The notes under the pieces: model-generated | What the model saw: only the letters and a program-made list of their open reading frames with translations | Told to the model about the DNA's origin: nothing | Database searches by the model: none | Part shown: one piece after another, positions 12,267 through 61,002 of the stretch | Layout: each line of letters starts with the position of its first letter | How positions within the stretch are numbered: position 1 is the stretch's first letter | Position numbers and translations under genes: made by a program | Origin: Giardia intestinalis | Taxonomy: Eukaryota | Assembly (NCBI GenBank): GCA_000002435.2 | Contig: CM018792.1 | Direction: 5' to 3' (one strand) | DNA: 64,000 nucleotides

Positions 12267-12276
12267 ACCTAAGTAT

Positions 12277-30051: not shown

Positions 30052-30063
30052 TGTCACCAGCTT

Positions 30064-33000: not shown

Positions 33001-36000
33001 AGCAGCATCCTCCTCGAGGTTTCCTGCCTCATCTAGGTCTACATACATTGCGTAATGACTAGCAGGAAATTCGGCATAGATACGCACCATATCTCTCCGC
33101 AACTCATATGACAGTCGTACTATGGGGAAACGGGTTGTCTTCCCCGTGTAGTGCTGCTTAAATTCGTGAAGAAGAGAGAGCCAGGGGTCGCTGTCGGCAG
33201 TAACCTCGAGCACATTGAAGTCAACGTCAAGAAAGATCTTGGTAAGCTTCAAGCGCTGCTGCCCTATGTACAAGAACATTAGAAGATCATGTCTATACTT
33301 GATGAGGACCTTACTTCCCATATAGGTGATATGAATGCCTCGTGATGCTAAGAACAAGTGCAGGTAGCTTGAGGTAGGCCGAGTGCCAAGCACAGAGGTC
33401 CCTGGAGCCGGTAGCGCACGTTCGCGCCGGGTCTTCTCCTCATCTACAAGGGTTTTTAGTTCAGTAAGCTTTCGCTTTCGACGCCTCCACTCTATTTGCT
33501 GCAAGGATTCACGCTCCCGATCTTTTTTGGTTTTGGCAGCGCCAACCGATCGCTGCATAGAGCTATCCGCTGTGCAAGGTTTTGAAGCCTCGTAAAATAT
33601 CCGTTCTATGTAACGCTCAGCATACTGCAAGTCTACTTCTGGTGTCGGAGAAAACGGTGTTGAGACCTGTCCAACAACCACAGTTGAGAGGTTGACAGGA
33701 CGAAGAGAAACTCGTATGCTCAAACCAGAACCGTTAACAATCTTGTGAAGAATAACGCCTGAGGCAGGTATGGATTCTACACAATGCATGGCACCGCCTC
33801 TGCTGTAATGGGCAACATATGCAGAGGTGTCTGCACTGCGCAAGTCGAACTGTGTTGCAAGAGTGTCAATACTAATATCAAAATCTGGCAAAACTGTTGT
33901 ATCTAACAATAAGGGTAACGCCTTCTTCTTATCGTCATCTTCATGGAGTTGTAGTTGCTCTGGCTCTTGTATGTACGCAGCCAAGAGCCGGTTAGGAACA
34001 TAAAGGACAGGGTCGGGTGCAGCTGGCTGTTCATGTACTGGTGATTCTGCCTCTGGTTCTACCTCATCTGCTTGTGGAGACCCAACTTGTTTGGTCCAGT
34101 AGTTAGATGCCAGTCCCACACTTCCGAAACACTCACTGAGCACCAAATTACTATTCAAAAAGTTGCCAGTGGAGCTTAGAAACATGTGAGTGGGGGGAGA
34201 AATTGGGCTGGTGTCAATGAATTCGGAGGCAAGGGGAAAGATGGGCCTAGTGTACTCGCTAAGAGATGGTAGTTCTTGGCGATCGTCTGCAAGGCTGAAG
34301 GAGTTTGCACAGGAGACATCGCGGAGTGATGAAGTAGCTTTAGTAGCAGGGTCTTTCTCCTTTCTTGCACCCGGCTTATCTGCTCTGACATCTCTGGATA
34401 GCACCACATTCTTAAGGCTGGAGACATGTGCTTCTGTGATGCTTTGTTCGGTTGCAGATGCTGGGTCATACAATATAGAGTTTCCCGTCTGGAAAGAAGA
34501 GGACTTATCTCCAGGAATGCGGTAGCGCCGGGTTAAAGGAATAATCGAAGGTAAAAGAGGAACATACTCAGTTAGATTTGGTTGGTTCTTGGAAGGCTCA
34601 GGCGGTTCCTCCCTTTGCACCAGGGTCTGCTTCTCTTCCTTAGACTTTCCCTGCTGCGTAGACTTTGATCGCTGCTCCACCTGCGCCTCTGTATAATACT
34701 GACTCCATATCTGAGGGTAATTATTCGATAAAAACGACTCATCAGTGAGTATGGATTGAATAAGAGGCGTGTTGATCCAGACTCCAAACATAGGGACAGT
34801 ATTGAAAAGGGAAAACAGATCGTCTTTGAATTGAGCTAGAAGATGTGCTTTGCTGTGTTGCAGCGGAACTACGTCTGAAGTGACCACCAGATTGACAGAC
34901 TTATTATCGACGTCAACGGAGATACTATACGTCGACATACTAGCAAGGGTGTCCAGCATCGTGGCATAGTCTAAGTCCTTGTGGGAAAACTCCATCACTA
35001 CAGCTCCAAGTGAGATGTTGACAACTGCATCAGGATGGATGCCATATGATCGGTCAGCTTGAGCCGCATGATCGAAAGATGAACCCTTCACCCCTTGGAT
35101 GGCAGAGGTAATTGCAGACTCCTTGACATGCATCTGGTAGTAATCGATTTGGTTTGCTTTCTCTCCGGATTCATTACTTGCTTCCTTAGAGCAAAACGTA
35201 GCTCCATTTTCTCCTGTAGAGTTACCATTCTCTTCCTTGCACGACCCATGGTCAGATGGTACTGGCTGTGATCTCCTTAGTTTATTCAAAAGAGACATAA
35301 GTGCCAAAAGGTCGTAACTGGCTGCCTTAAGACGGATATCATTGATGTGCTTTTCCCTCTCGACGGCCTCTGCTTCTACGTAATTTTCTACCCGAAAGGT
35401 AAATCCGCTCGAGACTCTAACCGTAGATTCATATGTTGTGGTTATCTTGTGCGGCATTACCCCGAAGAATGCATTCAGCAACGACGGTGCTAATTTGTTT
35501 GAGTTAATTGTGTGCTCAGCTTCGGAGTTCTGGAGCGTGTGGATAGTGAGAGAGGTGGCCCCCGTTGCTGCAGATATTATTGCAGATGATATTGAAATGA
35601 GCTCCTGCCGATTCGAAGTAGAGGTTTCGAGTAGCGCCATGAGTGGTTCTGTATAAAGAGATACCGGACGATTAATTCTAGCTGAAAAGTAAGTACCCAA
35701 TTGCTTGGATGAGTGGGCATCTTTCTCGCTGAAGCTATCTGCCGAACATTGTTGGTCATTGGCATGAGGTTCATCCTTCGGGTTGCCTTCTTCAGAAGTA
35801 GCAATCTTATCTCCTAACTCTGTGCTGAGAAGCATAGTATCAATGGCACTAATATCAAAGTGATTCTCCGCTAAGCTCTGTGTACTAAGATGTTGGACAA
35901 GAGCACTGAGGTCTGAGTGCCCCGCTTCGGTCACCGCCGGAGCATCGGGTGGTTGATTGGCAGTAGCCGTGGTAGCTCCCGCGGAGCTGCTGGCCTTGCT

Positions 36001-39006: not shown

Positions 39007-42000
39007 ATGCCCGTCACTGGCGTCAAGGTGGCCGTGCGCATTCGACCGCTCAACTCACGGGAGAAGGATATGAAGTCCAAGGTGTGCGTGGACACCCCGA
39101 CAGCAAACAGGGTAGTCATCTTTGACCCTAATGGTGATAAGAAGGCACACACGTTCATTTACGATTATGCGTACTGGTCATTGGATGGTCGGTATGAAAA
39201 AGCTACTCAGGACGTTGTCTATAGAGACCTAGGGGCTAATATTCTAAATAACGCCTTCGAAGGCTACAACTATACGATTTTTGCATATGGTCAGACAGGC
39301 TCTGGGAAATCATACACCATGATGGGATCGCTGCAGAATGAGACCGAAGCTGGCCTAATTCCTCGAGCCTGCAGGGAGCTATTTCAACGAATAGAAGCAT
39401 ACGAGGAGGCAGATCCTGCCCACACGACAGAGTTCCAGGTCTCCGTTTCCTACCTCGAAATTTACAATGAGAAACTAAAAGATCTGCTGACCTCAAAGAG
39501 TAAGCAGCGTGAGCTAAAGATCCGGCAGGATCCCAAGACCGGGGTCTTTGTGCAGGACCTCAGCCACCACGCAGTTCGCAGTGCCTTTGAGATACAGAGG
39601 CTGCTGGACATAGGCGATAAAAATAGAACGGTTGCATCAACTAATATGAATGCTACCAGCTCCCGCTCTCACTCAGTTTTTACAATCATGTTCAAGAAGA
39701 TAACTATTAAACACAATAGTTCGGGTAAGATATGTGGAAAGTCGCAGCTCTCCTCCACCATAAGTCTTGTCGACCTGGCTGGATCTGAAAGGCTTGCTTC
39801 AACGGGTTCTGTGGGCGCCCAATTTGTCGAGGGAGTGTCTATCAACCAATCTTTAACGACCCTTGGCATGGTCATTGAAGGGTTGGCCTACAATTCCAGC
39901 TGTGAGTCGAAGAAGAAGCACAAGTTCATTCCATATAGAGATTCACAACTCACATATCTTCTTCAGGATGCGCTGGGTGGGAACGCCATGACCTGCATGG
40001 TTGCTACCATCTCTCCAGCAAATATAAATTATGATGAATCTATCTCCACCCTACGGTATGCAGACAGAGCAAAGCACATTAAGAATGTCGTCCAGAAGAA
40101 CGAGACGGCACAAGAGCGTTACATTAAAGAACTGGAAGACCGTGTAAAGGAGTTGGAGAAGATGCTCATTAATGGCACGCACCCAGCTAACACCGCCGAC
40201 GCTGCTGGATCAACAGAGGGGGAGGCAGACATACGGGCCAAAATAGAGGAGTATGAGCGGCTACTTCAGGTGACGAACATCAATTATGAGAAGCAGCTCG
40301 AACAGTCTGCTCGCATTCAAAAGGATCTTGAAAAGAGACTAATTGAGATGGGAATAGAGCTCACGTACGGTGCTAAAGTTAATGTACCGTATATCTCAAA
40401 TCTGAACGCTGATTCAGCCATGTCGCACACGTTGCTATTTAAATTGGGGACCACAGAAGATCTCATGGCTCACACCGAAGTGACCACTGTTTGTGGCTTC
40501 AAAATGCAGGATACCATTCCAAGTACCTACCGAATCAAGTTGCCGTCTGTTTTGGGGGTTGCCCCGAGCCACTTTAAGGTTCGTAACACAAATAAGGTAA
40601 TAGCTATGGATAACCAGCAAGGCTATTGCCTGTATCCGAAGATGATTGCTGTCTATGTGAGTGTTCTGGATAGCAAGTACCCCATTTTCATCAACGGAGT
40701 AGAGCTCACAGTAGGCACTGAGCGGTTGCTTCAGCACGGGGATCGAATCCTCTGTGGGGCTTGTCTGGAATCCTCCTTCTTCTGCTACAATGACCCTATA
40801 GCAGTTAAGTATGCCAATGACAAGGCGAAAGCATCAAGCCTTACGTTTGTTCCGCCGGAGATCACGTGGGACATGGCTCACGAGGAGTATATGAAGCACC
40901 AAACAGGTGGAGACGACGTAGAGGAGGAGAACCCGTTGCGCGTCGAGGGAAGCTTTTTAGCATCTCCACAGACACACCAGGAGGACGGTGCAGATCTAGG
41001 CAAGGTGCCAGAGGCTAGGCGTGGAGCAGAGGATCATGCTTCAAAGGATGACCTCCGTACAGAGGGCGAGAAGAATGTGCACAGAGCTATCAAGAAAATG
41101 TACCCGTATATCTGCGAGGCCAATGCGCTTGCAGACTTTTTTGACTATCATACTCGTTTTTCTCTGGAGATCCGCAGTTTAATTGAGCCAGATCAGGAAT
41201 CCAATATGCGCCCCATCAGGAAGAACGCTATAGAGGTTGTGGTAACAGATATAGATGAAAATCCCAACACGGGGGAGGTTTCTGCTATCAAGCAGACGTG
41301 GAGTGTCAATAAGTTTATTCAGCGCTTTACAATTATGAAAAATATGTATGAACACGCCATCCAGTGCGACAGCAAGGAGATTGCCCTTGAGTATGCACGG
41401 GAGCGCTGTAATAGCGATGACTACACTGCAGACGAGTTCCCCTTTGACTTTGACGCGGTTGACGAGATCCGCTTCACTGCTCACCTCATAGGTACATGCC
41501 GTCTCTGCTTGAAAGATATCATCTTCAAGGATGTTCACGTTCAAGGTCGTCTCCAGTTCTCGGATTATCGTGGACGCCCAATGTCAGAAGTCGATTCAGA
41601 AGTGGACAGAGCTATTTCAAATGCAGATCACTACGACGACATTGCGCTGGACGATGTATCCAACGTCTCCATTCGCTTCCACTTTCACAAGGCTTACGGG
41701 GTCCCCGTTATTTACACCAAGAATGTGCATGTAGTGGTCCATTATCCCTCGTTCATGGCGAACTCTGAGAGGCCGGATTGCAGGCTTACAGAGGCCCAGG
41801 AAAACACATTTCGCCGGAAGCTTCTGGCAAACGACTGCGGGATAGCATCGAAGCCTAGCGTGGAGATCAGTATCAATCCCCTTCTTGACAGCATAGTCTA
41901 CATAGATATACCCGCTAAGTATTTCGCCGACCCCGCTGTCAAGGAATGGCTCCTAGACTCTAAGAATGGGATTCTTCTATCCTTGTATGGATACAACAGC

Positions 42001-42228
42001 AACATTTACGACACATCAACGCCTGTTTCACACATTGAAGCTCCTACACCAATCCATGAGATCCCAATTCAAAATGACGCCGATTCAGCCCAAAAAGGGA
42101 AGGTAACCATCAACGCCCGGAATGTAATTAAAACGCAGCAGATGCCCGACAAGGAAGAGGAGGCAGAGGATGGCTCAAAGATAATAGTTCGTCGGCAGAT
42201 ATTCTTCATAGACATCAATAAGAGGTAG
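39007..42228 (+). CDS. Kinesin-3 family motor protein (1073 aa) with N-terminal motor domain and probable FHA-like segment
   Basis: MPVTGVKVAVRIRPLNSREK start typical of KIF1/Unc104, P-loop GQTGSGKSYTM, switch I SSRSHSVF, switch II LVDLAGSER, neck coiled coil (ELEDRVKELEKML), then YPIFINGVELTVGTERLLQHGDRILCG. Confidence 0.9.
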   Translation: MPVTGVKVAVRIRPLNSREKDMKSKVCVDTPTANRVVIFDPNGDKKAHTFIYDYAYWSLDGRYEKATQDVVYRDLGANILNNAFEGYNYTIFAYGQTGSGKSYTMMGSLQNETEAGLIPRACRELFQRIEAYEEADPAHTTEFQVSVSYLEIYNEKLKDLLTSKSKQRELKIRQDPKTGVFVQDLSHHAVRSAFEIQRLLDIGDKNRTVASTNMNATSSRSHSVFTIMFKKITIKHNSSGKICGKSQLSSTISLVDLAGSERLASTGSVGAQFVEGVSINQSLTTLGMVIEGLAYNSSCESKKKHKFIPYRDSQLTYLLQDALGGNAMTCMVATISPANINYDESISTLRYADRAKHIKNVVQKNETAQERYIKELEDRVKELEKMLINGTHPANTADAAGSTEGEADIRAKIEEYERLLQVTNINYEKQLEQSARIQKDLEKRLIEMGIELTYGAKVNVPYISNLNADSAMSHTLLFKLGTTEDLMAHTEVTTVCGFKMQDTIPSTYRIKLPSVLGVAPSHFKVRNTNKVIAMDNQQGYCLYPKMIAVYVSVLDSKYPIFINGVELTVGTERLLQHGDRILCGACLESSFFCYNDPIAVKYANDKAKASSLTFVPPEITWDMAHEEYMKHQTGGDDVEEENPLRVEGSFLASPQTHQEDGADLGKVPEARRGAEDHASKDDLRTEGEKNVHRAIKKMYPYICEANALADFFDYHTRFSLEIRSLIEPDQESNMRPIRKNAIEVVVTDIDENPNTGEVSAIKQTWSVNKFIQRFTIMKNMYEHAIQCDSKEIALEYARERCNSDDYTADEFPFDFDAVDEIRFTAHLIGTCRLCLKDIIFKDVHVQGRLQFSDYRGRPMSEVDSEVDRAISNADHYDDIALDDVSNVSIRFHFHKAYGVPVIYTKNVHVVVHYPSFMANSERPDCRLTEAQENTFRRKLLANDCGIASKPSVEISINPLLDSIVYIDIPAKYFADPAVKEWLLDSKNGILLSLYGYNSNIYDTSTPVSHIEAPTPIHEIPIQNDADSAQKGKVTINARNVIKTQQMPDKEEEAEDGSKIIVRRQIFFIDINKR

Positions 42229-42242: not shown

Positions 42243-43991
42243 TTAGTGCATGTTATCGTTCCCCTCCTTCTTGGACTCAAAGACACAATCCATCCCCTTG
42301 AAGTTCCAAAGGGGCTTCCACTGGTCGATGATTGTACATGTTCCTTGAATATGCTTTGTGATGTGGGCCACGGGCTTATATGCATCCGGGGCCTCATCAA
42401 TAACCTCTTGCTGCAGGCATGTTGAGTAAATGCCCTTCATTTGCTCGATGACCGTTTCCAGCTTGATGCTCCGCTTTGCTGCTATGCGTGACATTATTCG
42501 ACCTGCGCCGTGGGGTGCCGTACAGTTCCAATCTGGGTTTCCTAAACCCTTGCAAACGAGGATACCATCTCGCATATTCATGGGGATAATAAGAATGTCG
42601 TCCTTGTTTGCTCGAATGGACCCCTTGCGCATTATTTTAGATTGTAAGTCAATGTAATTATGAATGCAATCTGTGTAAAATAGCGAATCCATGAATGTAG
42701 CAATTGCCTGAGCACGGATGCCAGGATCAAAGTCGTCGTCCCAAATTCCACGCGCCTGGACGGGTATACCAGAAAGAGAGCAATATATGTTAAAGGCTAT
42801 GACTAGACGGTTCAGCTTCGCAAACAATTGGCAAAACTTCATGGCGCGAAGATAGTCCTCGGCTCCTAAAGACTGGTAAAGACACGCGACATTAGGGTTC
42901 TTCACTAGTATCGCTTTGTACGCTTCTATGTCTTCTTCAGTAGTGCCTAAAGGAAAGACACTAAGGTAGTCGTATGAAGACGCAACGAGTTTGCAGCGGC
43001 TTAGATACTCCACAGCTCGGGCATTGATTCGGCGCGTGAGCTCGGCCTTGTACTCTTTGACAGGCAACGCTTGGGCGGAAGCATCCTGTTTTAGCTCCTC
43101 TTGGATCTCATCCCGCAACTTCAAATAGAATGCCTTTTTATCCTCAGCAGAAATAGGTAAGGTGAGACCGGGATTCTCGGCCGATAACTCAGTAGGCATC
43201 TTCTTCAATGCCTGAAGATTGTTGAACAGGAGCTTAAAGAAAGGGGATGTATCATTCACCAGGAGCTCAGCTGGCTCTATCCCCAAAAGAACCTTTGTGA
43301 CAATCTCCGCTGCAGATATGAACTTGGACGCGATGGCCCCGCCAAGACCTCTACTGCCAGAGTGGACAACTATGTAACCTTCACCGCTCTTTGCCGAATC
43401 AAGCTCGACAAAGTGGTTCCCAGAGCCTAAAGTCCCACAGCACTTCATCAAACTATGGAACGTAAACCTCAAGTCCAGATAGTCATGCCAGTATTCGAAT
43501 TCGGCAACAAAGTCGTCATAGCTAAGTAGTCCAGATGCCTCTGGACAGTATTTGGACAGGCACGGCAAGAGATGTGATAGCATTCGCTTAAACCGGGCTT
43601 CCGAAACGTCTTGATGGAATCCAGTGGGACCCCCAGGAACGGCATGTTTTCCATAATATCCTGCTGGGACTTCTTTGTGTACAATCTCATCTAAGTTCTT
43701 CAAGAACGATTGGTCACTGATCTTCCCCTCATATGGTTCTAATAGTTTATTGGGGAGCCGTATGACAAACATTCCACACCCTATATCGACGCCTATGATG
43801 CTAGGAATAATACAGGTATCGTAAGGCGCGGAGAATCCCACAATTGTTCCTTTGCCTGAATGACAATCCGGCATGACCCTTATCGGTTGGTTGACAAAAA
43901 AGGGGAGTTTCGCCAGTTCTTTCAACATTGCAATCGTGCCGTCCTCTGGCTGCTCGGCAAAGATCTTAACATTGGATGGTAGCGATGTCAT
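42243..43991 (-). CDS. RTCB: RtcB/HSPC117-family RNA (tRNA) splicing ligase, 582 aa
   Basis: RtcB signatures MPDCHSGKG, IGVDIGCGM, GSGNHFVELD, APHGAGRIMSR. ATG at 43989-43991 (minus). Somewhat longer than the typical ~500 aa (insertions). Confidence 0.9.
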   Translation of the reverse strand: MTSLPSNVKIFAEQPEDGTIAMLKELAKLPFFVNQPIRVMPDCHSGKGTIVGFSAPYDTCIIPSIIGVDIGCGMFVIRLPNKLLEPYEGKISDQSFLKNLDEIVHKEVPAGYYGKHAVPGGPTGFHQDVSEARFKRMLSHLLPCLSKYCPEASGLLSYDDFVAEFEYWHDYLDLRFTFHSLMKCCGTLGSGNHFVELDSAKSGEGYIVVHSGSRGLGGAIASKFISAAEIVTKVLLGIEPAELLVNDTSPFFKLLFNNLQALKKMPTELSAENPGLTLPISAEDKKAFYLKLRDEIQEELKQDASAQALPVKEYKAELTRRINARAVEYLSRCKLVASSYDYLSVFPLGTTEEDIEAYKAILVKNPNVACLYQSLGAEDYLRAMKFCQLFAKLNRLVIAFNIYCSLSGIPVQARGIWDDDFDPGIRAQAIATFMDSLFYTDCIHNYIDLQSKIMRKGSIRANKDDILIIPMNMRDGILVCKGLGNPDWNCTAPHGAGRIMSRIAAKRSIKLETVIEQMKGIYSTCLQQEVIDEAPDAYKPVAHITKHIQGTCTIIDQWKPLWNFKGMDCVFESKKEGNDNMH

Positions 43992-44368
43992 GGGAAATTG
44001 CTTTTTGTGAAATGATCTTTTACATAAAGCTTTTAGTCATGTGGGAGGGGCTACGGCACTATCGCACTCCACTAAGTCAAGAGGCATGTGTTCATGTCTA
44101 CCATAAATGGCGGAGTACATGGACATTTCAACTAGTATTTGTTACGCTGCTATCTTCTTCGTAGTTGCCATATTGTGAATAGCACAATCACTATTTACAC
44201 AAATGCTGTTTACTTCCCTACAAATTTGACATTTTATATGAAGGCGCAGATCAGCAATATTTTTCACCACATCTATTAAGCCATCGTCCCCTTTAGACAT
44301 AAGTGGAGTAGACACTCTCATTTGAACATGTCTTAAATGGCACAGGCTGGAGCTTTGACAAAAAAGAA

Positions 44369-47300
44369 ATGCCGGTGACAGGGGTCAAGGTCGCGGTGCG
44401 CGTCCGGCCGTTCAACGCGCGCGAGAAGAAGGAGGCGGCGCGGCTCTGCGTCGACATGCCGGGCGGGGGGAAGGTCGTCCTCCGGGACGCAGACGCGAAG
44501 AAGCCCGACGCGGCGTTCGTCTACGACCACGCGTACTGGTCCCACGACGCGAGCCGCCCGTGCGCGACCCAGGACACGGTCTACGCAGACATCGGGCCGA
44601 GCGTCCTCGACAACGCGTTCGAGGGCTACAACTACACGCTCTTCGCGTACGGCCAGACGGGCTCCGGGAAGTCGTACTCGATGATGGGCGCGCCCGCGAG
44701 CGAGGCCGACGCAGGGATCATCCCGCGGGTCGGGCGCGAGCTCTTCCGCCGCGCCGCCGCCTCGCCCGCCGAGACGCAGGTCTCCGTCTCGTTCCTCGAG
44801 ATCTACAACGAGCGGCTCCGGGACCTCCTCGTCCCCGCCGCGGGCGCCCAGGAGCTCCGGATCCGCCAGGACCCCGCGGCGGGCGTCTTCGTCCAGAACC
44901 TCAGCCACCACGCGGTCGCCGACTACGACGCGATCCAGCGCCTGATCGAGCTCGGGGACCGGAACCGGACGGTCGCGGCGACGAACATGAACGCGACGAG
45001 CTCGCGCTCGCACTCCGTCTTCGCGATCGAGGTCGTCCAGACGGCGGTCCTCCGGAACGACGCGGGCGAGGAGGTCGGGCGCCACGTCAAGCGCGCCCGG
45101 GTGAGCCTCGTCGACCTCGCGGGGTCCGAGCGCCAGGGCAAGACGGGCGCGACGGGCGACCGCCTGACGGAGGGCATCAGCATCAACAAGTCCCTGACGA
45201 CCCTCGGGCGCGTCATCGAGGCGCTCGCGTACAACACGACCGCGGAGGGCCGCCGGAAGCCCCAGCACGTCCCGTACCGCGACTCCCAGCTGACGTACCT
45301 CCTCCAGCCCGCGCTCGGGGGCAACTCGATGACGTGCATGATCGCCGCGATCTCGCCTGCGTCGACGAACTACGACGAGAGCCTCTCGACCCTCCGCTAC
45401 GCAGACCGCGCCCACCAGATCGAGAACACCGTCACGAAGAACGAGTCTGCCCAGGAGAAGTACATCCGCGAGCTCGAGGACCGCGTCAAGGAGCTCGAGG
45501 CCCTCCTCGCCGGGGGCGCCCCCGCCGGGGACGCAGGTGCCGGCAATGATGCGTCAAGCACTAACGTTTCCCAAATGCAGGATATCCTTGAAGAGTATAA
45601 GCGCATGCTTGACGAGGCAAACGTTGATAATGCAAAACGCCTCGAGGACGCAGAAAGAGAAAACAAGGCTTTGGAAGAAAGCCTCAACCAATTTGGTCTG
45701 TTAAAAGACTCTCCAACTCACTCCTACCTTCTCTCTCTTAATGAAGATCCTTTGCTTTCTGGCTTGCTGCGTTACAGAATCGTAGGAAAAGAGACAGACA
45801 AGAGTCATTACGTTGCTGTGTTCGGAAATCAAGAGACTGAAAACCCGAAGTTTGATGATTCCATCGTGCTTGCCAACAAGCTTGGCCTTGAATTCGAGCA
45901 TTTCACCATCACATATACAGCTACTGACAATAAGTATGTCCTTGCGTGCCTTTCTGAGACAGAACCTGTCATGCTTAATGGTGATTATCAGCTTCATGAC
46001 ATGGAGCCTGCTACTCTCTTCCACGGAGACTTCCTTAAGTGCGGAGATGGTAACGGAGCATACTACGTGTTTGTCGATCCTAAGCAACAAGAGGCCAATC
46101 CTCTTCAGATATCTCTGCTCTATGATGAGGCGGTCTCCCAGTTTGTTTCAAAGAATGGGACTATTAATCCATTGAACAAGCTTCCTGATCAATACACAGA
46201 GGAGGAGCAACACTCTACAGATGGCCAGCCTGCACAAGATGAACAGGTTTCACCGCCTTCCAGCTCCATCGATATAGAGCGCAATAAGCAGCGCCTCAAG
46301 GAAAAAGAGAAGTATCTACAGATACGTGATGAGATGCTTGATCTATTCCCCAAGCTTTGTGAGGCATCCCAGTTGGCTCGCTATTTCGGCCAGCAGATTG
46401 AGTATTCCATGGACTACGCCACTACCATTGAACAAACAAAGTCTGGATTTCCTAGTTTGAACTACGAGATATCAGTCCAGGCCTCCGTGCGGGTGTATAA
46501 TCCTGGGTTTGAAGAGTACACAAGTGATATCCACACGTGGTCGGTCACTAAGTTCCTGCGCAAGTATTCGGCACTACGTGCTCTCTTCTCCCACGCAGTG
46601 GAAATCAACGATAAGGCCAAGGCTATTGAAGACATGGAGCGTGAGCTCGCGAATGACCCGTGTCTTGGTCTTGATCATCCATTTAGGATGGATGAATCAG
46701 CCCTTCCGGAGTATGATGAATGGACACACTTCATTGGAGAGCTTCAGCTGAATATAGCAGACCTGTGCAAGACTTACACCATTTCTCGTAGACGCCTGCC
46801 AATCTTGAACCCTACTACCCGCGAGGTCATCAGCGATGTAGAATTAGAGGCCTGTATCCCTAATCCTTGCAAGCATGATGGATATGAATGTGAGGCCTTC
46901 GCCGATAGGGTCCTTAAAGTTGGGGAACCATGCTCCATATCAATCTATGTTCACAGGCTCTATGGCATCAAGCCTTTGTATAACGCCAATGTCCATGCCG
47001 TAGTTCACAAGCCGGCGTACTTGGGTATTCCTAACTCCACCCGTCCAAACCGAACGATGACGCCCCAGGAAGAGGACAGGTATCGTAATTTCATCCTGAG
47101 CACAAACCGAGCCGTAGCTTCAAACTGTTCGGGAGAGGTGTCGATAAATCCGCACGTTCGCTCGTGGGTTACTCTAGATCTACCTCCTATCAGTCAAGAA
47201 GGCTATGACTACTTCAGCAGCGGAAAGCCTCTCTATATCTCCTTCTACGGATACTACACCCAGGTCAAGAAGCAGATCCAGAATTCTGCTATTTATAACA

Positions 47301-47449
47301 CAAAGGAAAACACTCTTCACATCCATAAACGCAACATTATTGCAACGAAAATGGGTCCTGTGACCACCGAGGTCCGCGACGGAAAAGAGATCAAGACCAA
47401 GGCAGAATTTTATTTCATCGACATCAATGGACCCTGTGGGGCCGAGTAA
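44369..47449 (+). CDS. Kinesin-3 family motor protein, paralog of 39007-42228 (1026 aa); motor+neck region encoded in extremely GC-rich codons
   Basis: MPVTGVKVAVRVRPFNAREK, GQTGSGKSYSM, SSRSHSVF, LVDLAGSER, ELEDRVKELEALL. Tail regions are also collinear with the first kinesin (NVHAVVHKP.. versus NVHVVVHYP.., ..FYFIDIN.. versus ..IFFIDIN..). Confidence 0.9.
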   Translation: MPVTGVKVAVRVRPFNAREKKEAARLCVDMPGGGKVVLRDADAKKPDAAFVYDHAYWSHDASRPCATQDTVYADIGPSVLDNAFEGYNYTLFAYGQTGSGKSYSMMGAPASEADAGIIPRVGRELFRRAAASPAETQVSVSFLEIYNERLRDLLVPAAGAQELRIRQDPAAGVFVQNLSHHAVADYDAIQRLIELGDRNRTVAATNMNATSSRSHSVFAIEVVQTAVLRNDAGEEVGRHVKRARVSLVDLAGSERQGKTGATGDRLTEGISINKSLTTLGRVIEALAYNTTAEGRRKPQHVPYRDSQLTYLLQPALGGNSMTCMIAAISPASTNYDESLSTLRYADRAHQIENTVTKNESAQEKYIRELEDRVKELEALLAGGAPAGDAGAGNDASSTNVSQMQDILEEYKRMLDEANVDNAKRLEDAERENKALEESLNQFGLLKDSPTHSYLLSLNEDPLLSGLLRYRIVGKETDKSHYVAVFGNQETENPKFDDSIVLANKLGLEFEHFTITYTATDNKYVLACLSETEPVMLNGDYQLHDMEPATLFHGDFLKCGDGNGAYYVFVDPKQQEANPLQISLLYDEAVSQFVSKNGTINPLNKLPDQYTEEEQHSTDGQPAQDEQVSPPSSSIDIERNKQRLKEKEKYLQIRDEMLDLFPKLCEASQLARYFGQQIEYSMDYATTIEQTKSGFPSLNYEISVQASVRVYNPGFEEYTSDIHTWSVTKFLRKYSALRALFSHAVEINDKAKAIEDMERELANDPCLGLDHPFRMDESALPEYDEWTHFIGELQLNIADLCKTYTISRRRLPILNPTTREVISDVELEACIPNPCKHDGYECEAFADRVLKVGEPCSISIYVHRLYGIKPLYNANVHAVVHKPAYLGIPNSTRPNRTMTPQEEDRYRNFILSTNRAVASNCSGEVSINPHVRSWVTLDLPPISQEGYDYFSSGKPLYISFYGYYTQVKKQIQNSAIYNTKENTLHIHKRNIIATKMGPVTTEVRDGKEIKTKAEFYFIDINGPCGAE

Positions 47450-47502
47450 ACCTTTGATATCCAGCTGAGTGAGTTGTGGTCGGAGTTTCTTGTAACATTA
47501 AT

Positions 47503-50500
47503 ATGGGAAGTGAACGAAATCTAAAAAACGCGAATACGGAAATGGACGTTCTCAAGACGTGTCGCTATAATGACTCCTCCTACATAGGTAGTGGGGGACT
47601 TGGCGATGTATATCGGGCAACAAGCGCCAGTTCTGGTGTGAAGGTCGCGGTACGGAGGGTGGATATATCCAAGCTATCCAAAGAAGCCTGGGCAGAGCTT
47701 TCCACCATTTGTAAGCCCTACACCAATCTTATTCATCCGAACCTAGTAAGATACTATAGCGTAACCATAGAGCAGCCCTTCCAACAACTTCTTTTGGAAA
47801 TGGAACTATGTAACGGTGGCTCTCTTCAGGATGTAATCAAAAAGATGCGGTCCGATGGGACGTCGTTTGATGAGGAAACTGTTTGGAGCATAGCCTCACA
47901 GATTGCCGCCGGGCTTTCATGGCTCCACAGCCCATTCAATGGGGTGGGGGTTGTACCTCACTGTAATATAAAGCCCTCTAACATTCTTATAGGCAGTCAA
48001 GGCGTCTTTAAGTTGACTGATTTCGGTTTACAGCACGTGCCATTTAGCAGAACCATCCCCACAAGCCAATCAGGATCGGCGCTGTATCGTGCACCGGAAC
48101 TGCGGGACGGAGCCAGCGCACCGTCGATACGATCAGATATATGGTCGTTTGGTTTGCTTCTTTGGACAATGTGTACACTCCGCCACCCTCTATTTAATCT
48201 GGATGAAGTGACAGAGGAGCCTTCTATTCGTCTCCCAACATATTCCCAAGTACTCAATGATTTAATCGAGGGTTGCCTTCGTATCAACCCTACTAGTAGA
48301 CTTACAATTACCGAAGTGGTTTCGCGCATACGCGCTAACGTGCCAACTTCACACTCTAGATCCAGCTCTACTGCACGGGCTGATACACGGACTGCCTTTC
48401 AATATAAAAACACCAACAATCTACAACCTGAAATCACAAATGAAATAGTGTCTAACGCTACCTACCTAATGAGTAGTAGGCCACGCTCCGCAACTATGGC
48501 CAAGAAGAGCCGCGTTTTTGCTGATGATCCGACTGACCAATCCATCTCTACCCCTGTTACTGGCCCAGAGCAGAAGCTAACTTCCATTCGGCCCATGAGT
48601 GGTCGCGCCTCCACATTTTCCAGAAGCAACACAGATTTATCTGTCTCACAGCAGGTCGAATGCTCGGCTCTGTTAAAACAGGACCAGCTCCCAGTAGCTA
48701 CACCCAACGGGCCAGCTTCTCTCAACATCATGAGCCGCTCTCAGGCCCCTCGAGGCAATCATGATAAGTCGGGCATGCAAGCCATGGTATCCTCTACTGC
48801 TGAGGCTAGTGAGACAGTGATTCAGTCTCGGAATAAAAACCTGGCTGAATCCTTGCGCTTTCAAGGCGCATTTCCTGTTGCTCGAGAGCGACCGCTTCAA
48901 CCAGGTGTTGGCAGACCCGTACCTACTGTTTATAGTACTACGCCATCTCCCTCTTGTCCTGTGTCTGAGCCAATTGAAGATGGACTCCGAGGCGAAGAAG
49001 ACGCTCTCTACACGAGTGGAGCTGCCATTCCTCCTGCTGCTTCAAACGAGCCGCGTGCTGAAGTTAACGACCTGCCCCACACTTTACCTGAGCAGGACGT
49101 TCCACTGAGTCCTATTGTAGATAGCCTACTTATGGCCGCACAAAATTCGCGCTCTGCGTCTCGCGCAGATAGTCGCAGTGTAAAACGTGTGCCCAAGCAT
49201 ATGTCGACTACGGAGTCGTCTATAGTTCAGCAGCCATCTCTGAAAGAATCTTTGTCCGCACCTCAAGTTTCGGGGGCCTCCGATGACGAACTATCCCGGG
49301 CAATTCTCTCAAATGACTGCAACTACTTTTCGATCGTTTTGCAAAAGCTCTATGGTGACCTTTTATCCCAGGAACTTCTTGAGTCTTGTTTCAAGCAAGC
49401 TATAGCTTTCTCTGCTCACTTGGTGCTTCCAATTCTAGCAGAGAATCTCTTAGCAGCTGGAATAAAGATCAAGACCGGCTTTGGACTAGAATCGCGACAG
49501 GGCGTGGATGTAGATTTTCCCAGCGAGCTGATGATTGCCGCGCAAAAAGGTGACGCGGGATTGGTTCGTGCCAGCCTTCGTGACATGGGGCAAATCTACA
49601 AAAATCGGACAGCTCTAATGCTCGCTGCAGAACATGGCTCTGTTGAGTGCATCAAGCTATTGCTGGGAGAGTTGGCGATACAAAATTCAATGGGGGAGAC
49701 GGCTCTTGTTCTCGCAGCTAAGAAGGGGTACGTTGATTGCATCTCTCTCTTGCACGCAGAAGGAAATCTAACCTACTCGGAGTATGATAAGTTTTCTGAC
49801 GGCGCACTCGTCTCTGGATTGACGCCCCTTATGGCATCTATTCGAAGCGGCCAGAGACACTGCATTCATGAATTCCAATATCTTCTTAAGCGACAAGCAA
49901 GCAATGGAGCAACAAGTCTGATGTATGCTGTACTGGGCGAGCTGGATGCCTGCATACCATATTTGGTGGATGAGTGTCGGATCACCGATAACCTTGGCGA
50001 GTCAGCACTCATGAAAGCAGTCGATGGCCCAAGCATGCAGGTTGTCGAGTTCCTAAGCAAGTACGAAGGAGGAATCCAGGACATAGAAGGGAGAACGGCG
50101 CTTCTACGTGCTATTCAGAACAAGAATGTAACATATGTCAAGGCCATGCTTCGCATTCAGAAGCAGTCGTCGGAGCGTGACATAGGGCTGGTTGCAAACG
50201 ATGGGACCACGCTTTTCACTGCAGCAATCAAAAGTGGTTCAGAAAACCTTATTTATCTACTCAATGCCGAGGACATGTCTGCGTCAAAATATCTCCGTTC
50301 AGGTGCGCGTTCTGCAAACATACAGAATGTTCAGCAGTCAGGGTCGGTTATTAAACTAGAAAACCCCAGCGAAGACACAGCTCAGCAAGGATCTGTTCAA
50401 CACACGCCTCAGCAGACACACCAAACGTTGGCTGAGAGGCTACAAGCGGTCAACAATTCACTTGCATCAGCCCAGCCTTCCTTATCCAAAGAACTACTCG

Positions 50501-52035
50501 ATAAGCATCAGCACGACACTCTTTTTGCACTGCTCTCCGGCGATGTTTCTGTTGATGAACTCGACTTCAGCTGCTTCCGCTCCCTTGCAGGTAAAACAGA
50601 TAGAGATGGCTACACCGCTCTAATGATAGCTGCCATCAATGGCAATCAGGCCTTTGTAGAGAAAATTGTGAGCACACCAAGCATGCACGAGGAACTAGGG
50701 AAAGTTGATCGTGAAGGGCGTAGCGCACTAATACTTTCAATACTACACCAGCGGGTGGCCTGCGCGAAGATACTCGTGACAGTGCCAGGAGAACTCGGTT
50801 GTAGCATGCCCGACGGAGTCACCCCCTTGATTCTAGCGATTCAGAAGCGATTTTATAGCATTGTCCCTTCTCTCCTAGAAGTCTCAGGGCAGCGCACCAA
50901 GGAAGGAAAGAGCGCACTTATGATAGCGATGGAACTAAATGCGCCCCTGCGTTCATTGGGGAGCCTCCCAGAAAGAGAAGCAACCCTGTGCAATGCCTTA
51001 GGGGAAAATGCACTCTTTTACACTATCAGAAACAACAAGCATCTCTATCTAGCCCGGCTTGCCGAGGTTGCCAATAATCGCCCAAATGACGCTGGGCTTT
51101 ATGCGATCAACATTGCTGTAGAACAAGATTGCTGGCAATGTTTCAAAACCATGTATGAATATGAGGCCCGCGCTGTCATTGGAACGCGAGAGGCCATCGG
51201 AGCGCCGTTCAAGACGTTGATCTTATCCATACTGCGGAACAATAGCATCCGTATACTTGAAAATATGAGTGCCCTTCTCCGTACTAAGCCTTTCAGGGTC
51301 CAACTTCCATCTACACAAGTCTCCGTGCTCGACAGTCTATCCCCCACTATGCTGGCAGCCAGAGAAGGAAACGAGGCAGAACTTTGCGCGCTGATCTGTA
51401 ATCAGCGTTCAGGCTCTAAAGCAAATGCCCATATTGTCCAAGTGTACAACGGTAGGACCGCCCTGATGGAGGCCGCAGCACGGGGCTACGCTTCTTGTGT
51501 AAGGCTACTTCTAGGTGAGGTGGGGTTTCGAGATGAAAATGGCCGCACTGCGCTGATGCTTGCAGCACAGAATGGGCACCTTGAATGCGTCCATCTGCTA
51601 CTCATAGAAGCAGGCGTTAAGACGATAACCCGCGAAACGGCTCTAACTCTTGCAGTGGCCAACGATATGACAGAGTGTGCAGATGTCCTTCTATGTAGAG
51701 AGTATTGGCTATCTGGAACCTCCTCTATGCTGCCGTTCAGTTTGGGGATACAGCACTCAAAGGCGTGTGCAGAAGTTGTCTCGATTAAGCGGGTTGTGAG
51801 TCTGTATAGGACATACTACAAGGATTATGAGGCGCAGATCGGCCGATGCCACATATGCCTCGATGAACTGTGTACTGTCCGGTGTCTTCCATGCAGTCAT
51901 GATGTTGCATGCCCGTCCTGCGTGCGAGATATTCTGGAGGCAACGCGTGCAGGAAACACTAAACGCAATCGCTGCCCAATCTGTAGAGCAGAGATTGAAA
52001 ACTGGACACAAGTATTTGTTGAAAGCAGTCTTTAG
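47503..52035 (+). CDS. NEK-like pseudokinase, ankyrin-repeat, C-terminal RING-finger protein (about 1510 aa from the first ATG)
   Basis: The track start at 47476 is GTG; the first ATG is at 47503. The kinase fold has GSGGLGDV, but VAIK is VAVR (Lys to Arg) and HRD is HCNIKPSNIL (Asp to Asn), while DFG and APE are retained. Multiple ankyrin repeats in the middle and C-terminal half (TALMLAAEHGSVECIKLLL, ETALVLAAKKGYVDCISLL, RTALMLAAQNGHLECVHLLL ...). C-terminal C3HC4 RING: CHICLDELCTVRCLPCSHDVACPSCV...CPICR. Confidence 0.75.
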   Translation: MGSERNLKNANTEMDVLKTCRYNDSSYIGSGGLGDVYRATSASSGVKVAVRRVDISKLSKEAWAELSTICKPYTNLIHPNLVRYYSVTIEQPFQQLLLEMELCNGGSLQDVIKKMRSDGTSFDEETVWSIASQIAAGLSWLHSPFNGVGVVPHCNIKPSNILIGSQGVFKLTDFGLQHVPFSRTIPTSQSGSALYRAPELRDGASAPSIRSDIWSFGLLLWTMCTLRHPLFNLDEVTEEPSIRLPTYSQVLNDLIEGCLRINPTSRLTITEVVSRIRANVPTSHSRSSSTARADTRTAFQYKNTNNLQPEITNEIVSNATYLMSSRPRSATMAKKSRVFADDPTDQSISTPVTGPEQKLTSIRPMSGRASTFSRSNTDLSVSQQVECSALLKQDQLPVATPNGPASLNIMSRSQAPRGNHDKSGMQAMVSSTAEASETVIQSRNKNLAESLRFQGAFPVARERPLQPGVGRPVPTVYSTTPSPSCPVSEPIEDGLRGEEDALYTSGAAIPPAASNEPRAEVNDLPHTLPEQDVPLSPIVDSLLMAAQNSRSASRADSRSVKRVPKHMSTTESSIVQQPSLKESLSAPQVSGASDDELSRAILSNDCNYFSIVLQKLYGDLLSQELLESCFKQAIAFSAHLVLPILAENLLAAGIKIKTGFGLESRQGVDVDFPSELMIAAQKGDAGLVRASLRDMGQIYKNRTALMLAAEHGSVECIKLLLGELAIQNSMGETALVLAAKKGYVDCISLLHAEGNLTYSEYDKFSDGALVSGLTPLMASIRSGQRHCIHEFQYLLKRQASNGATSLMYAVLGELDACIPYLVDECRITDNLGESALMKAVDGPSMQVVEFLSKYEGGIQDIEGRTALLRAIQNKNVTYVKAMLRIQKQSSERDIGLVANDGTTLFTAAIKSGSENLIYLLNAEDMSASKYLRSGARSANIQNVQQSGSVIKLENPSEDTAQQGSVQHTPQQTHQTLAERLQAVNNSLASAQPSLSKELLDKHQHDTLFALLSGDVSVDELDFSCFRSLAGKTDRDGYTALMIAAINGNQAFVEKIVSTPSMHEELGKVDREGRSALILSILHQRVACAKILVTVPGELGCSMPDGVTPLILAIQKRFYSIVPSLLEVSGQRTKEGKSALMIAMELNAPLRSLGSLPEREATLCNALGENALFYTIRNNKHLYLARLAEVANNRPNDAGLYAINIAVEQDCWQCFKTMYEYEARAVIGTREAIGAPFKTLILSILRNNSIRILENMSALLRTKPFRVQLPSTQVSVLDSLSPTMLAAREGNEAELCALICNQRSGSKANAHIVQVYNGRTALMEAAARGYASCVRLLLGEVGFRDENGRTALMLAAQNGHLECVHLLLIEAGVKTITRETALTLAVANDMTECADVLLCREYWLSGTSSMLPFSLGIQHSKACAEVVSIKRVVSLYRTYYKDYEAQIGRCHICLDELCTVRCLPCSHDVACPSCVRDILEATRAGNTKRNRCPICRAEIENWTQVFVESSL

Positions 52036-60970: not shown

Positions 60971-61002
60971 GAACCAAGTAAACATAAAAACCATACTCTT
61001 CC

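What the first reader, a model, noticed from the sequence alone, without database searches (positions are those of the whole stretch)
44369..45545. Abrupt extreme-GC3 block confined to the motor domain of one kinesin paralog
Within a single uninterrupted ORF, the first ~1.18 kb (motor plus neck coiled coil) has about 97% G or C at third codon positions. Runs such as gcgcgcgag and ccgcgccgccgcc appear with no CpG avoidance. The encoded protein is shifted toward Ala/Arg/Gly/Pro at positions where the paralog 5 kb upstream has K, S, T, N or I. At about 45,540 the composition drops to ordinary (roughly 45% GC3) over a few bases while reading frame and homology to the paralog continue seamlessly. 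The AT-normal 5' UTR ends five codons before the block begins. Spurious long antisense ORFs (44333-45415 minus, 44560-45549 plus) are a side effect. This looks like a gene-conversion or replacement tract from a very GC-rich donor, or strong localised GC-biased conversion. Either is unusual for a housekeeping motor gene, and it fits the other GC-rich blocks around the VSP island.
Basis: seen in the sequence. Interest (0 to 1): 0.8.

Follow-up and report, generated by a model that had tools for sequence, protein, structure and literature searches.

The report
Two kinesin genes sharing one GC-rich motor
The GC-rich first 1.17 kb of this Giardia kinesin-3 gene is one arm of an inverted repeat shared with a second kinesin-3 gene about 30 kb away; ongoing gene conversion keeps the two arms nearly identical and has most likely pushed them to almost 100% G/C at silent sites, a known process seen here in an unusually clean form.

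Summary
Codons 1-388 of the ORF at 44369-47449 have 98% GC3. The rest has 52%, and the step falls at nt 45533-45541.

It is not a foreign insert, a chimera, or a feature of one paralog only. A second kinesin-3 gene (K3-II) lies about 30 kb downstream in inverted orientation, outside the window, and carries the same block.

- **Within lineages**, the two blocks are 99.2-100% identical (assemblages A, B, E and G. muris).
- **Between lineages**, the block differs by 5% (A vs B) and 24% (G. intestinalis vs G. muris).
- **The tails** are only 22% identical in protein.
- **The edges** of identity (about -9 to +1172) coincide with the GC3 step.

This is concerted evolution by interlocus gene conversion. 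A roughly 30 kb inversion specific to assemblage A, with breakpoints at the two blocks, shows that crossovers also happen there.

The GC excess looks like a fixation bias:
- S<->W differences at fourfold sites are about 13-fold rarer in the block than in the tail, while C<->G changes are not reduced.
- All 9 copy-specific variants are G/C->A/T.
- The protein is shifted toward Gly/Ala/Arg/Pro (34% against 21-28%).

GC-biased gene conversion is the best explanation. This is a new instance of a known phenomenon.

The parts
44360..44368 (+). AT-rich leader (aaaaaagaa) just upstream of the ATG, identical in K3-I and K3-II. It marks the 5' limit of shared sequence in assemblage A.
   Evidence: Identity between window K3-I and DH K3-II starts at about -9. 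Further upstream the two are unrelated (28-46% identity). In assemblage B the shared leader reaches about -22 to -24, and in G. muris -9.
44369..45541 (+). The conversion tract, which is the GC3 block. It is one arm of an inverted repeat shared with the kinesin-3 paralog K3-II and encodes aa 1-391.
   Evidence: GC1/GC2/GC3 are 0.675/0.476/0.977. There are 3 mismatches in nt 1-1172 against DH K3-II. WB K3-II (P0123) differs by 1 aa (K21R) in 391. The distance matrix clusters by lineage, not by paralog.
44399..45421 (+). Kinesin motor domain (aa 11-351), lying inside the tract.
   Evidence: Pfam PF00225, E = 5e-106, residues 11-351.
45422..45541 (+). Neck linker and neck coiled coil (aa 352-391), forming the 3' end of the tract. 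GC3 relaxes over the last three codons or so (GCA GGT GCC).
   Evidence: Change point at nt 45533. Identity to K3-II ends at +1172, which is window 45541.
45542..47449 (+). K3-I-specific tail, with ordinary composition (GC3 about 0.51). It is not shared with K3-II.
   Evidence: The tails of K3-I and K3-II are 21.9% identical in protein. The tail is orthologous in assemblage B (86% aa) and in G. muris (about 43-45% aa).
42243..43991 (-). RtcB gene flanking the block upstream. It serves as a marker of the A-specific inversion.
   Evidence: RtcB lies upstream of K3-I in A (window, DH) but upstream of K3-II in B (L006, L012).
47476..52035 (+). NEK/ankyrin kinase gene downstream. It travels with the K3-I tail in all assemblages.
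   Evidence: 81% aa identity, A vs B.
39007..42228 (+). It is not a conversion partner.
   Evidence: GC3 is 0.55. There is only 64% nucleotide similarity over 483 nt to the block. The similarity at the 5' end is at protein level, with synonymous differences.
44333..45415 (-). Spurious antisense ORF. The plus-strand ORF 44560-45549 and the minus-strand ORF 44923-45339 are of the same kind.
   Evidence: The first codon position of these frames falls on the sense third position, which is always G or C, so TAA, TAG and TGA cannot occur (and frame arithmetic).

Best explanation
The block is one arm of a 1.17 kb inverted repeat. The repeat is formed by the 5' ends (leader, motor domain and neck coil) of two anciently duplicated kinesin-3 genes.

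**The two genes**
- K3-I is in the window.
- K3-II lies about 30.7 kb downstream on the opposite strand, next to the clathrin heavy-chain gene.

**Mechanism**
- Recurrent intrachromosomal (interlocus) gene conversion between the arms keeps them nearly identical within each Giardia lineage. The promoters and the cargo-binding tails have diverged beyond DNA recognition.
- Heteroduplex cannot extend past the ends of homology, so the tract has fixed, sharp edges.
- Within the tract, resolution of G/C:A/T mismatches in favour of G/C (GC-biased gene conversion) removes most new G/C->A/T mutations and leaves G<->C changes neutral.
- Over a very long time (since before the G. muris / G. intestinalis split) this has driven silent sites to about 98% G/C. 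It has also pulled first and second codon positions, and hence the protein, toward Gly/Ala/Arg/Pro.
- Occasional crossover between the arms inverts the interval, as happened in the assemblage A lineage.

**Shown:** the concerted evolution, the coincidence of the edges, the inversion, and the substitution spectrum.

**Inferred:** that the fixation bias comes from biased mismatch repair rather than selection.
For: **1. A second carrier exists.** K3-II in assemblage B (L006, L012), A2 (L010), E (L009, partial) and G. muris (L007) has the same GC3 block of about 100%, or 84-96% in G. muris.

**2. The block clusters by lineage, not by paralog.**
- K3-I vs K3-II differences: A 4-9 per about 1160-1170 nt, B 8/1164 between isolates and 3 within GS, E 0/291, G. 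muris 0 in 1166.
- Between lineages: A vs B 5%, A vs E 3%, G. intestinalis vs G. muris 24%.

**3. The duplication is older than the species.** K3-I and K3-II tails are 21.9% identical in protein. Each tail has its own ortholog in G. muris at about 43%.

**4. The edges coincide.** Identity runs from -9 to +1172 in A, about -22 to +1158 in B, and -9 to +1166 in G. muris. The GC3 change point is at +1164.

**5. Crossover has occurred at the arms.**
- The upstream neighbours are swapped between A and B. RtcB lies upstream of K3-I in A and of K3-II in B. The 866/868-aa gene lies upstream of K3-II in A and of K3-I in B and in G. muris.
- Downstream neighbours stay with the tails.
- The 58 nt upstream of K3-I in assemblage E match the upstream of K3-II in A.

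**6. There is a fixation bias.**
- At fourfold sites A vs B, the block has 25/219 differences, of which 17 are C<->G. The tail has 125/231, of which 5 are C<->G.
- S<->W differences are 3.7% in the block against 52% in the tail.
- All 9 copy-specific singletons are G->A or C->T. Fixed third-position differences are 19 S<->S to 8 S<->W (Fisher p = 0.006).

**7. The bias is not limited to third positions.**
- Arg uses 32 CGS and 0 AGR codons. Leu uses 30 CTS and 0 TTR.
- GC1 and GC2 are raised. GARP is 34% against 21-28% in the 11 other kinesin-3 motors compared. FYMINK is 19% against 25-30%.

**8. Lineage-specific A/T-ending codons are shared by both copies** (for example GCA at codons 41, 73, 115, 345 in A and GCA at codon 9 in B). 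This shows homogenisation after the A/B split.
Against: - No conversion event is observed directly.
- The bias could in principle be selection for G/C-ending codons. All 26 reported optimal codons of Giardia end in G or C, and some genes reach GC3s of 99% (PMC8393687). S<->S neutrality alone therefore does not separate gBGC from codon selection.
- The only non-coding part of the tract, the 9-24 nt leader, is AT-rich. It is probably the promoter/initiator and constrained, so there is no neutral non-coding site on which to test the bias.
- The singleton test rests on 9 sites from draft assemblies, and some could be sequencing errors.
- The WB copy of K3-II could be checked only as protein (P0123). 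Its DNA was not retrievable, so the A comparison uses the A2 isolate DH.
- GC3 of 98% needs a strong bias, roughly B of 4 or more by a back-of-envelope equilibrium argument. GC-biased conversion has not been measured in Giardia.
Confidence: 0.8

Rival explanations
1. Selection on codon usage or GC content of the motor-coding mRNA segment, for example for fast or accurate translation and co-translational folding of the motor, or for mRNA stability. Under this view gene conversion only homogenises the copies and plays no part in the GC excess.
For: - Giardia's reported optimal codons all end in G or C.
- Highly expressed genes use them almost exclusively, and GC3s reaches 99% in some genes (PMC8393687).
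- Within the block there are specific preferences: GTC 28 to GTG 3, and CTC 26 to CTG 4.
- Codon 4 (ACA) is conserved in all eight sequences.
Against: - The tail of the same mRNA is translated equally often but has GC3 of 0.51.
- The equally conserved motor of K3-III has GC3 of 0.55.
- The edges of the bias match the edges of paralog identity rather than the Pfam motor domain (aa 11-351). The bias covers aa 1-10 and the neck as well.
- Non-synonymous sites are shifted too: GARP 34%, GC1 0.675 and GC2 0.476 against 0.50 and 0.39.
- G<->C changes at fourfold sites are frequent, which argues against specific-codon selection.
Confidence: 0.1
2. Recombination-associated GC-biased mutation. Repair synthesis during frequent conversion is mutagenic toward G/C, and this, rather than biased fixation of heteroduplex mismatches, enriches the tract.
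For: - The GC excess is co-extensive with the recombining tract.
- C<->G differences per site are somewhat higher in the block than in the tail, 7.8% against 2.2% of fourfold sites.
Against: All 9 young, copy-specific variants are G/C->A/T transitions, so the visible mutational input is AT-biased, not GC-biased.
Confidence: 0.06
3. A one-off replacement of the motor region by DNA from a very GC-rich foreign or unidentified donor (horizontal transfer or introgression).
For: The composition is very different from the flanks and changes abruptly.
Against: - The best protein relatives of the block are Giardia kinesin-3 motors: G. muris 74%, an unidentified relative 67%, K3-III 61%, and other eukaryotes 54% or less.
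- The block is present with the same edges in A, B, E and G. muris, and it diverges along the species tree.
- A foreign composition would have decayed over that time unless actively maintained.
Confidence: 0.02
4. An assembly artefact: a chimeric join, or a repeat copy pasted into the wrong gene.
For: The P15 draft assembly breaks at the block. One contig ends 58 nt upstream of K3-I, and another ends inside the K3-II block. The repeat does therefore trouble assemblers.
Against: - Two independent Logan assemblies (SRR2642194, SRR2642197) match window 44207/44219-47459 exactly, across both junctions.
- WB, DH, GS, GS_b, BAH15c1 and the chromosome-level G. muris assembly all show both genes, each with unique flanks on both sides of the block.
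Confidence: 0.01

Closest known systems
Arm-to-arm GC-biased gene conversion in sex-chromosome palindromes (human Y palindrome P6, PMC3723533; primate X palindromes, PMC8981503)
   Same: Both involve inverted repeats on one chromosome, kept more than 99% identical by intrachromosomal gene conversion. Both show a bias toward G/C alleles and rare inversions of the spacer by crossover between arms.
   Different: - Here the arms are only 1.17 kb, are entirely coding, and are the 5' parts of two genes whose 3' parts differ.
- The spacer is 20-30 kb of ordinary genes.
- The GC effect is far stronger: silent sites at 98% against 51% in the flanks.
- The system has persisted across a very deep split (24% block divergence between G. 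muris and G. intestinalis).
- The organism has no demonstrated meiosis.
GC3 enrichment of paralogs under concerted evolution (mammalian Hsp70 and histone genes, Kudla 2004 and Galtier 2003, cited from memory; rDNA, Escobar 2011, cited in PMC10123126)
   Same: Multicopy coding sequences that exchange by ectopic conversion have much higher GC3 than non-converting relatives. The GC excess follows the converted segment.
   Different: - Those cases involve whole genes or gene arrays. Here only one domain-coding segment of two otherwise unrelated-looking genes is converted, which gives a step inside an ORF.
- For Giardia, gBGC has so far only been suggested for rDNA (PMC10123126).
Kinesin-3 family (KIF1/Unc104, KIF13, KIF28/KLP-6 type motors)
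   Same: The protein has an N-terminal kinesin motor followed by a neck coil. Its best database relatives are annotated kinesin-3, KIF13, KIF28 or unc-104. The tail shows FHA-like similarity in the paralogs.
   Different: - Pfam does not detect an FHA or PH domain in K3-I itself at E <= 0.001.
- The tails are Giardia-specific.
- The motor is compositionally shifted, at 34% Gly/Ala/Arg/Pro.
Translational codon bias of highly expressed Giardia genes (Lafay & Sharp 1999, as cited in PMC8393687)
   Same: The same set of G/C-ending codons is used almost exclusively.
   Different: That bias applies to whole genes and scales with expression. Here it stops at codon 388 of a 1026-codon ORF and extends to amino-acid composition.

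Membership tests
Concerted evolution by interlocus gene conversion | Paralogous segments are more similar within a lineage than orthologous segments are between lineages. | tested here: met
   K3-I vs K3-II block differences are 0.3-0.8% (A), 0.3-0.7% (B), 0% (E, 291 nt) and 0% (G. muris). Between lineages they are 5% (A vs B) and 24% (G. intestinalis vs G. muris).
Concerted evolution by interlocus gene conversion | The duplication predates the lineages compared, so recent independent duplication is excluded. | tested here: met
   The tails are 21.9% identical between paralogs. Each has an ortholog in B and in G. muris with conserved downstream neighbours.
Concerted evolution by interlocus gene conversion | There is a discrete tract with unrelated flanks. 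| tested here: met
   Identity is 96-100% per 50-nt bin (mostly 100%) from nt 1 to about 1150, and 28-58% on either side.
Concerted evolution by interlocus gene conversion | Conversion events are observed directly (pedigree, clone or population haplotypes). | not testable with these tools
   This needs population or clonal resequencing with phased long reads.
GC-biased gene conversion (gBGC) | GC enrichment is co-extensive with the recombining tract. | tested here: met
   The GC3 change point at +1164 lies within 10 nt of the identity edges at +1158 to +1172. The 5' edge is at the ATG or leader.
GC-biased gene conversion (gBGC) | There is a fixation bias toward G/C. Young variants are mostly S->W, while fixed differences are depleted in S<->W relative to S<->S. 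| tested here: met
   All 9 singletons are S->W. Fixed third-position differences are 19 SS to 8 SW (p = 0.006). Fourfold S<->W differences are 3.7% in the block against 52% in the tail. The sample is small.
GC-biased gene conversion (gBGC) | It acts on all sites regardless of coding role, including non-synonymous and non-coding sites. | tested here: inconclusive
   Non-synonymous sites and synonymous first positions are shifted. The only non-coding part of the tract, the 9-24 nt leader, is AT-rich and probably constrained as a promoter.
GC-biased gene conversion (gBGC) | A transmission or repair bias at heteroduplex mismatches has been measured. | not testable with these tools
   No measurement for Giardia was found in the searched literature.
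Translational selection on codon usage | The bias applies along the whole translated ORF and only to synonymous choices. | tested here: not met
   GC3 is 0.98 in codons 1-388 and 0.52 in codons 389-1026. Amino-acid composition is also shifted.
Horizontally acquired or foreign segment | The closest relatives of the segment lie outside the host lineage. | tested here: not met
   The closest relatives are Giardia kinesin-3 motors, and the block follows the Giardia species tree.
Kinesin-3 family motor protein | An N-terminal kinesin motor domain, with closest relatives annotated as kinesin-3 (KIF1/13/28). | tested here: met
   PF00225, E = 5e-106, aa 11-351. Hits are annotated Kinesin-3, KIF13, KIF28P and unc-104.
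Kinesin-3 family motor protein | An FHA domain downstream of the neck. | tested here: inconclusive
   No FHA hit was found in K3-I at E <= 0.001. K3-III has a weak hit just below the Pfam cutoff (20.4 against 20.7 bits), and K3-II has a faint precomputed hit.

The most novel reading that the evidence does not exclude
The kinesin-3 block may be the visible tip of a general rule. Under this reading, GC-biased conversion is strong in Giardia, and much of the genome's wide GC3 heterogeneity reflects how often a sequence recombines rather than translational selection. That would include the 'optimal codon' signature of some genes and the GC-richness of rDNA and VSP genes. The K3-I/K3-II arms would then be a natural, calibrated reporter of homologous recombination (rate, tract length, bias and crossover fraction) in an organism whose sexual or parasexual cycle is still disputed.
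Probability: 0.25. Interest if true: 0.65.

Novelty: new member of a known kind. Interest (0 to 1): 0.45.

Why it matters
**Evolutionary value**
- This is an unusually clean natural experiment. Inside one reading frame, a segment that recombines with a partner sits next to a segment that does not. The two differ by 98% against 51% G/C at silent sites.
- The difference is conserved from G. muris to G. intestinalis.
- It gives sequence-level evidence for active homologous recombination, both conversion and crossover, in Giardia.
- It also gives evidence for a fixation bias toward G/C in Giardia, where such a bias has only been guessed at for rDNA.

**Practical consequences**
- The two kinesin-3 genes have essentially identical motors. 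In WB they differ by 1 aa in 391.
- Short reads, peptides, antibodies, morpholinos and CRISPRi guides aimed at the motor cannot tell the two genes apart.
- Draft assemblies break at the block.
- Kinesin phylogenies built from motor domains will wrongly show a recent, lineage-specific duplication.
- The 30 kb inversion is a structural marker that distinguishes assemblage A from B and E.

Tried and rejected
- **The upstream paralog (39007-42228) as donor or partner:** rejected. It has ordinary GC3 and 64% nucleotide similarity over 483 nt. The 5' resemblance is at protein level only.
- **A second copy of the block inside the window:** none found.
- **Real genes on the other frames or strand of the block:** rejected by frame arithmetic.
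- **Structured RNA or rDNA in the other GC-rich blocks (9.0-17.5 kb):** no Rfam match at gathering threshold.
- **DNA of WB K3-II (P0123):** not on record in the contig index. The DH (A2) copy and the WB protein were used instead.
- **Literature:** four searches were run.
  - Giardia + GC3 + codon usage
  - Giardia + GC-biased gene conversion
  - Giardia + kinesin-3
  - Giardia + gene conversion / paralogs / inversion

  No description of this locus turned up. The library lacks most subscription-journal papers, so prior mention cannot be excluded.
- **Not attempted:**
  - Linking the window genes to GiardiaDB IDs. GL50803_112846 is called kinesin-3 in PMC5739509, but I could not tie it to K3-I or K3-II.
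  - Structure prediction and fold search, because the protein family is unambiguous.
Full report
**1.

The window is Giardia intestinalis WB. The 1026-aa product of ORF 44369-47449 is identical to XP_001709737 / KAE8303810, annotated 'Kinesin-3'.

- Total GC rises from about 0.45 to 0.70-0.72 between 44.3 and 45.5 kb and falls back within one 300-nt step.
- By codon position, GC3 is 98.2% for codons 1-388 and 51.5% for codons 389-1026.
- The maximum-likelihood change point is codon 388 (nt 45533). Log-likelihood is -477.7 for two segments against -634.7 for one.
- Only seven codons in the first 388 end in A or T.
- CpG observed/expected is 1.36 in the block against 0.75 in the tail.
- Other genes in the window have GC3 of 0.42-0.55. 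None exceeds 0.62 in any 200-codon stretch apart from a VSP gene at 0.88.
- The block starts at the ATG itself. The sequence immediately upstream is aaaaaagaa.
Their first codon position falls on the sense third position, which is always G or C, so no stop codon can occur.

**2. It is old and conserved, not a recent tract or a chimera**

- Orthologs from assemblage A2 (DH), assemblage B (GS_b) and G. muris show the same profile. GC3 is 96-100% (84-96% in G. muris) over the first 375 codons or so, then drops to background.
- Two independent Logan assemblies match window 44207/44219-47459 with no mismatch, across both junctions.

**3. The key fact lies outside the window**

Giardia has three kinesin-3 paralogs.

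It has ordinary composition and is not involved.
- **K3-II** is the third gene: P0004/P0134 in B, P0122 in DH, P0123 in WB, P0121 in P15 and P0005 in G. muris. It sits next to the clathrin heavy-chain gene and carries the same GC3 block.

Block differences between K3-I and K3-II:

| Comparison | Differences |
|---|---|
| DH K3-I vs DH K3-II (A2) | 9 in 1158 nt |
| Window K3-I vs DH K3-II (A) | 4 in 1173 nt |
| Within GS (B) | 3 in about 1158 nt |
| Within P15 (E) | 0 in the 291 nt available |
| Within G. muris | 0 in 1166 nt |
| A vs E | 3% |
| A vs B | 5% |
| G. intestinalis vs G. muris | 24% |

- In WB, the two proteins differ by one residue (K21R) in the first 391.
- The flanks are unrelated. 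The 150-300 nt upstream are 28-58% identical and the DNA after the block about 40-50%.
- The tails are 21.9% identical in protein. Each tail has its own ortholog in B (86% for K3-I, 84% for K3-II) and in G. muris at about 43%.

The duplication therefore predates the G. muris / G. intestinalis split. The 5' 1.17 kb has been homogenised repeatedly in every lineage since. This is concerted evolution by interlocus gene conversion.

**4. The tract edges are the composition edges**

Identity between K3-I and K3-II runs as follows:

- A: -9 to +1172, which is window 44360-45541.
- B: about -22 to +1158.
- G. muris: -9 to +1166.

The GC3 change point is at +1164. The block covers aa 1-391, which is more than the Pfam motor domain (aa 11-351) because it includes the N-terminus and the neck coil. 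The composition thus follows the homology tract, not the protein domain.

**5. Geometry and crossover**

- In DH, K3-I is at 30027-33092 (+) and K3-II at 59822-63109 (-) of AHGT01000029. The blocks are inverted-repeat arms 30.7 kb apart.
- In window coordinates the partner would lie at about 74-77 kb, beyond the window's end.
- In G. muris the arms are inverted and 21.6 kb apart.

The upstream neighbours are swapped between assemblages:

| Lineage | Upstream of K3-I | Upstream of K3-II |
|---|---|---|
| A | K3-III, then RtcB | 866-aa gene |
| B | 868-aa ortholog (87% identical) | K3-III, then RtcB |
| G. muris | 811-aa ortholog | (not compared) |

- Downstream genes stay with their tails: the NEK kinase and radical-SAM genes with K3-I, the 151/158-aa gene and clathrin with K3-II.
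- The 58 nt upstream of P15 (assemblage E) K3-I match the upstream of K3-II in A.
- The simplest reading is one inversion of the interval of about 30 kb, by crossover between the arms, in the assemblage A lineage after its split from E.

**6. Why the tract is GC-rich**

*Fourfold degenerate sites, A vs B*

| Region | Sites differing | C<->G | S<->W |
|---|---|---|---|
| Block | 25 of 219 | 17 | 8 (3.7%) |
| Tail | 125 of 231 | 5 | 120 (52%) |

- Exchanges between G/C and A/T are suppressed about 13-fold in the block. G<->C exchanges are not suppressed.
- Against G. muris, 44% of the block's fourfold sites differ, mostly C<->G.
- The block is therefore not conserved as a sequence. It is only held at G/C.

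*Young against fixed variants*

- All nine variants private to one copy are G->A or C->T, so the mutational input is AT-biased.
- Fixed third-position differences are 19 S<->S to 8 S<->W (Fisher p = 0.006).

*Sites other than third positions*

- Arg uses only CGS (32 to 0 AGR) and Leu only CTS (30 to 0 TTR).
- GC1 and GC2 are 0.675 and 0.476, against 0.50 and 0.39 in the K3-III motor.
- Gly+Ala+Arg+Pro is 34%, against 21-28% in the 11 other kinesin-3 motors compared. FYMINK is 19% against 25-30%.
- The shift is graded: G. muris 27%, B 32%, A 34%.

*Interpretation*

- Together with the edge coincidence, this is the expected signature of GC-biased gene conversion.
- Selection for G/C-ending codons is the main rival, because Giardia's reported optimal codons all end in G or C and some genes reach GC3s of 99% (PMC8393687).
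- That rival does not explain three things. The tail of the same mRNA and the motor of K3-III are unbiased. The bias follows the homology tract. The protein itself is shifted.
- A rough equilibrium argument (my inference) suggests a scaled bias B of about 4 or more in G. intestinalis and about 1.5 in G. muris.

**7. Comparison with what is known**

- The closest analogues are the palindromes of primate sex chromosomes. Their arms are kept more than 99% identical by arm-to-arm conversion that is GC-biased, with rare inversions (PMC3723533, PMC8981503).
- A second group is the GC3-rich converting paralogs, namely Hsp70, histones and rDNA. The first two are cited from memory. The rDNA case is cited in PMC10123126, which also floats gBGC for Giardia rDNA.
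- No description of this Giardia locus turned up in four literature searches. The library is incomplete.
- I file the finding as a new instance of a known kind of process. It is notable for three things:
  - the sharpness and size of the effect inside one ORF
  - its persistence across a deep split
  - its occurrence in an organism where recombination is debated

**8. Verdict**

- Observation: confirmed.
Localised GC-biased conversion is supported. A GC-rich donor, 'one paralog only' and the upstream paralog as comparator partner are not.
- Confidence in concerted evolution between K3-I and K3-II is very high. Confidence that the GC excess is due to biased conversion is about 0.7. I give 0.8 for the explanation as a whole.
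- Interest is moderate, at 0.45.

Noticed in passing
window 39007-42228 (+): K3-III is 82% identical in protein to its G. muris ortholog (P0008) over the full 1073 aa, tail included. The tails of K3-I and K3-II are only about 43% identical between the same species. K3-III appears to be an unusually constrained kinesin. The K3-I/II motor (74%) evolves faster than the K3-III motor (81%).
   Followed up: partly
window 9500-17000; VSP gene 12277-14805 (-); VSP C-terminal fragment 17390-17896 (-): These are the only other GC-rich blocks (0.58-0.68 GC) in the window. One is a full VSP gene (PF03302, E = 3e-137) with GC3 of 0.79, reaching 0.88 in one 200-codon stretch. The stretches at 9.5-10.7 kb and 15-17 kb hold only ORFs with flat GC1/GC2/GC3 and have no Pfam or Rfam match. 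Whether their GC-richness also reflects conversion among multicopy VSP sequences was not tested.
   Followed up: partly
L009 (P15 ACVC01000132) 1-290; L011 (P15 ACVC01000073) 1-58: The assemblage E draft assembly breaks at the repeat. One contig ends inside the K3-II block, so the gene model is truncated to 775 aa. The other ends 58 nt upstream of K3-I. GS_b also has a partial K3-II model (P0135, 809 aa).
   Followed up: partly
window 44378-44380 (codon 4, ACA): This is the only A/T-ending codon conserved in all eight block sequences, including both G. muris copies. The first 29 nt of the ORF are identical between G. intestinalis A and G. muris. There may be a nucleotide-level constraint near the initiation site.
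   Followed up: no
L003 (DH K3-I) about nt 1150-1165 of the gene; window equivalent 45520-45541: DH K3-I has a 15-nt (5-codon) deletion exactly at the 3' edge of the conversion tract, giving 1021 aa instead of 1026. A short cluster of differences from DH K3-II sits at the same place. The tract edge looks like a site of local instability.
   Followed up: no
L008 (Logan SRR31929897 contig, gene 6001-9249): This is a kinesin-3 (P0006, 1082 aa) whose tail resembles K3-III. It comes from an unidentified organism with 60% GC, and GC3 is 74-100% along the whole gene. It is probably an unsequenced Giardia relative. It shows 71% nucleotide similarity to the block.
   Followed up: no
L001 and L002, equal to window 44207/44219-47459: Both Logan contigs end at the same base 10 nt after the stop codon and start 150-162 nt upstream of the ATG. 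The shared 3' end looks like a transcript end. If these runs are RNA-seq, the 5' extension is long for Giardia. The run type was not checked.
   Followed up: no
L004 5977-6000 and L012/L006 equivalent (assemblage B leaders): In assemblage B the sequence shared by K3-I and K3-II extends about 22-24 nt upstream of the ATG (tatacccgaacgaaaaaagaa). In A and in G. muris it extends only 9 nt. The 5' limit of the tract therefore differs between lineages.
   Followed up: partly
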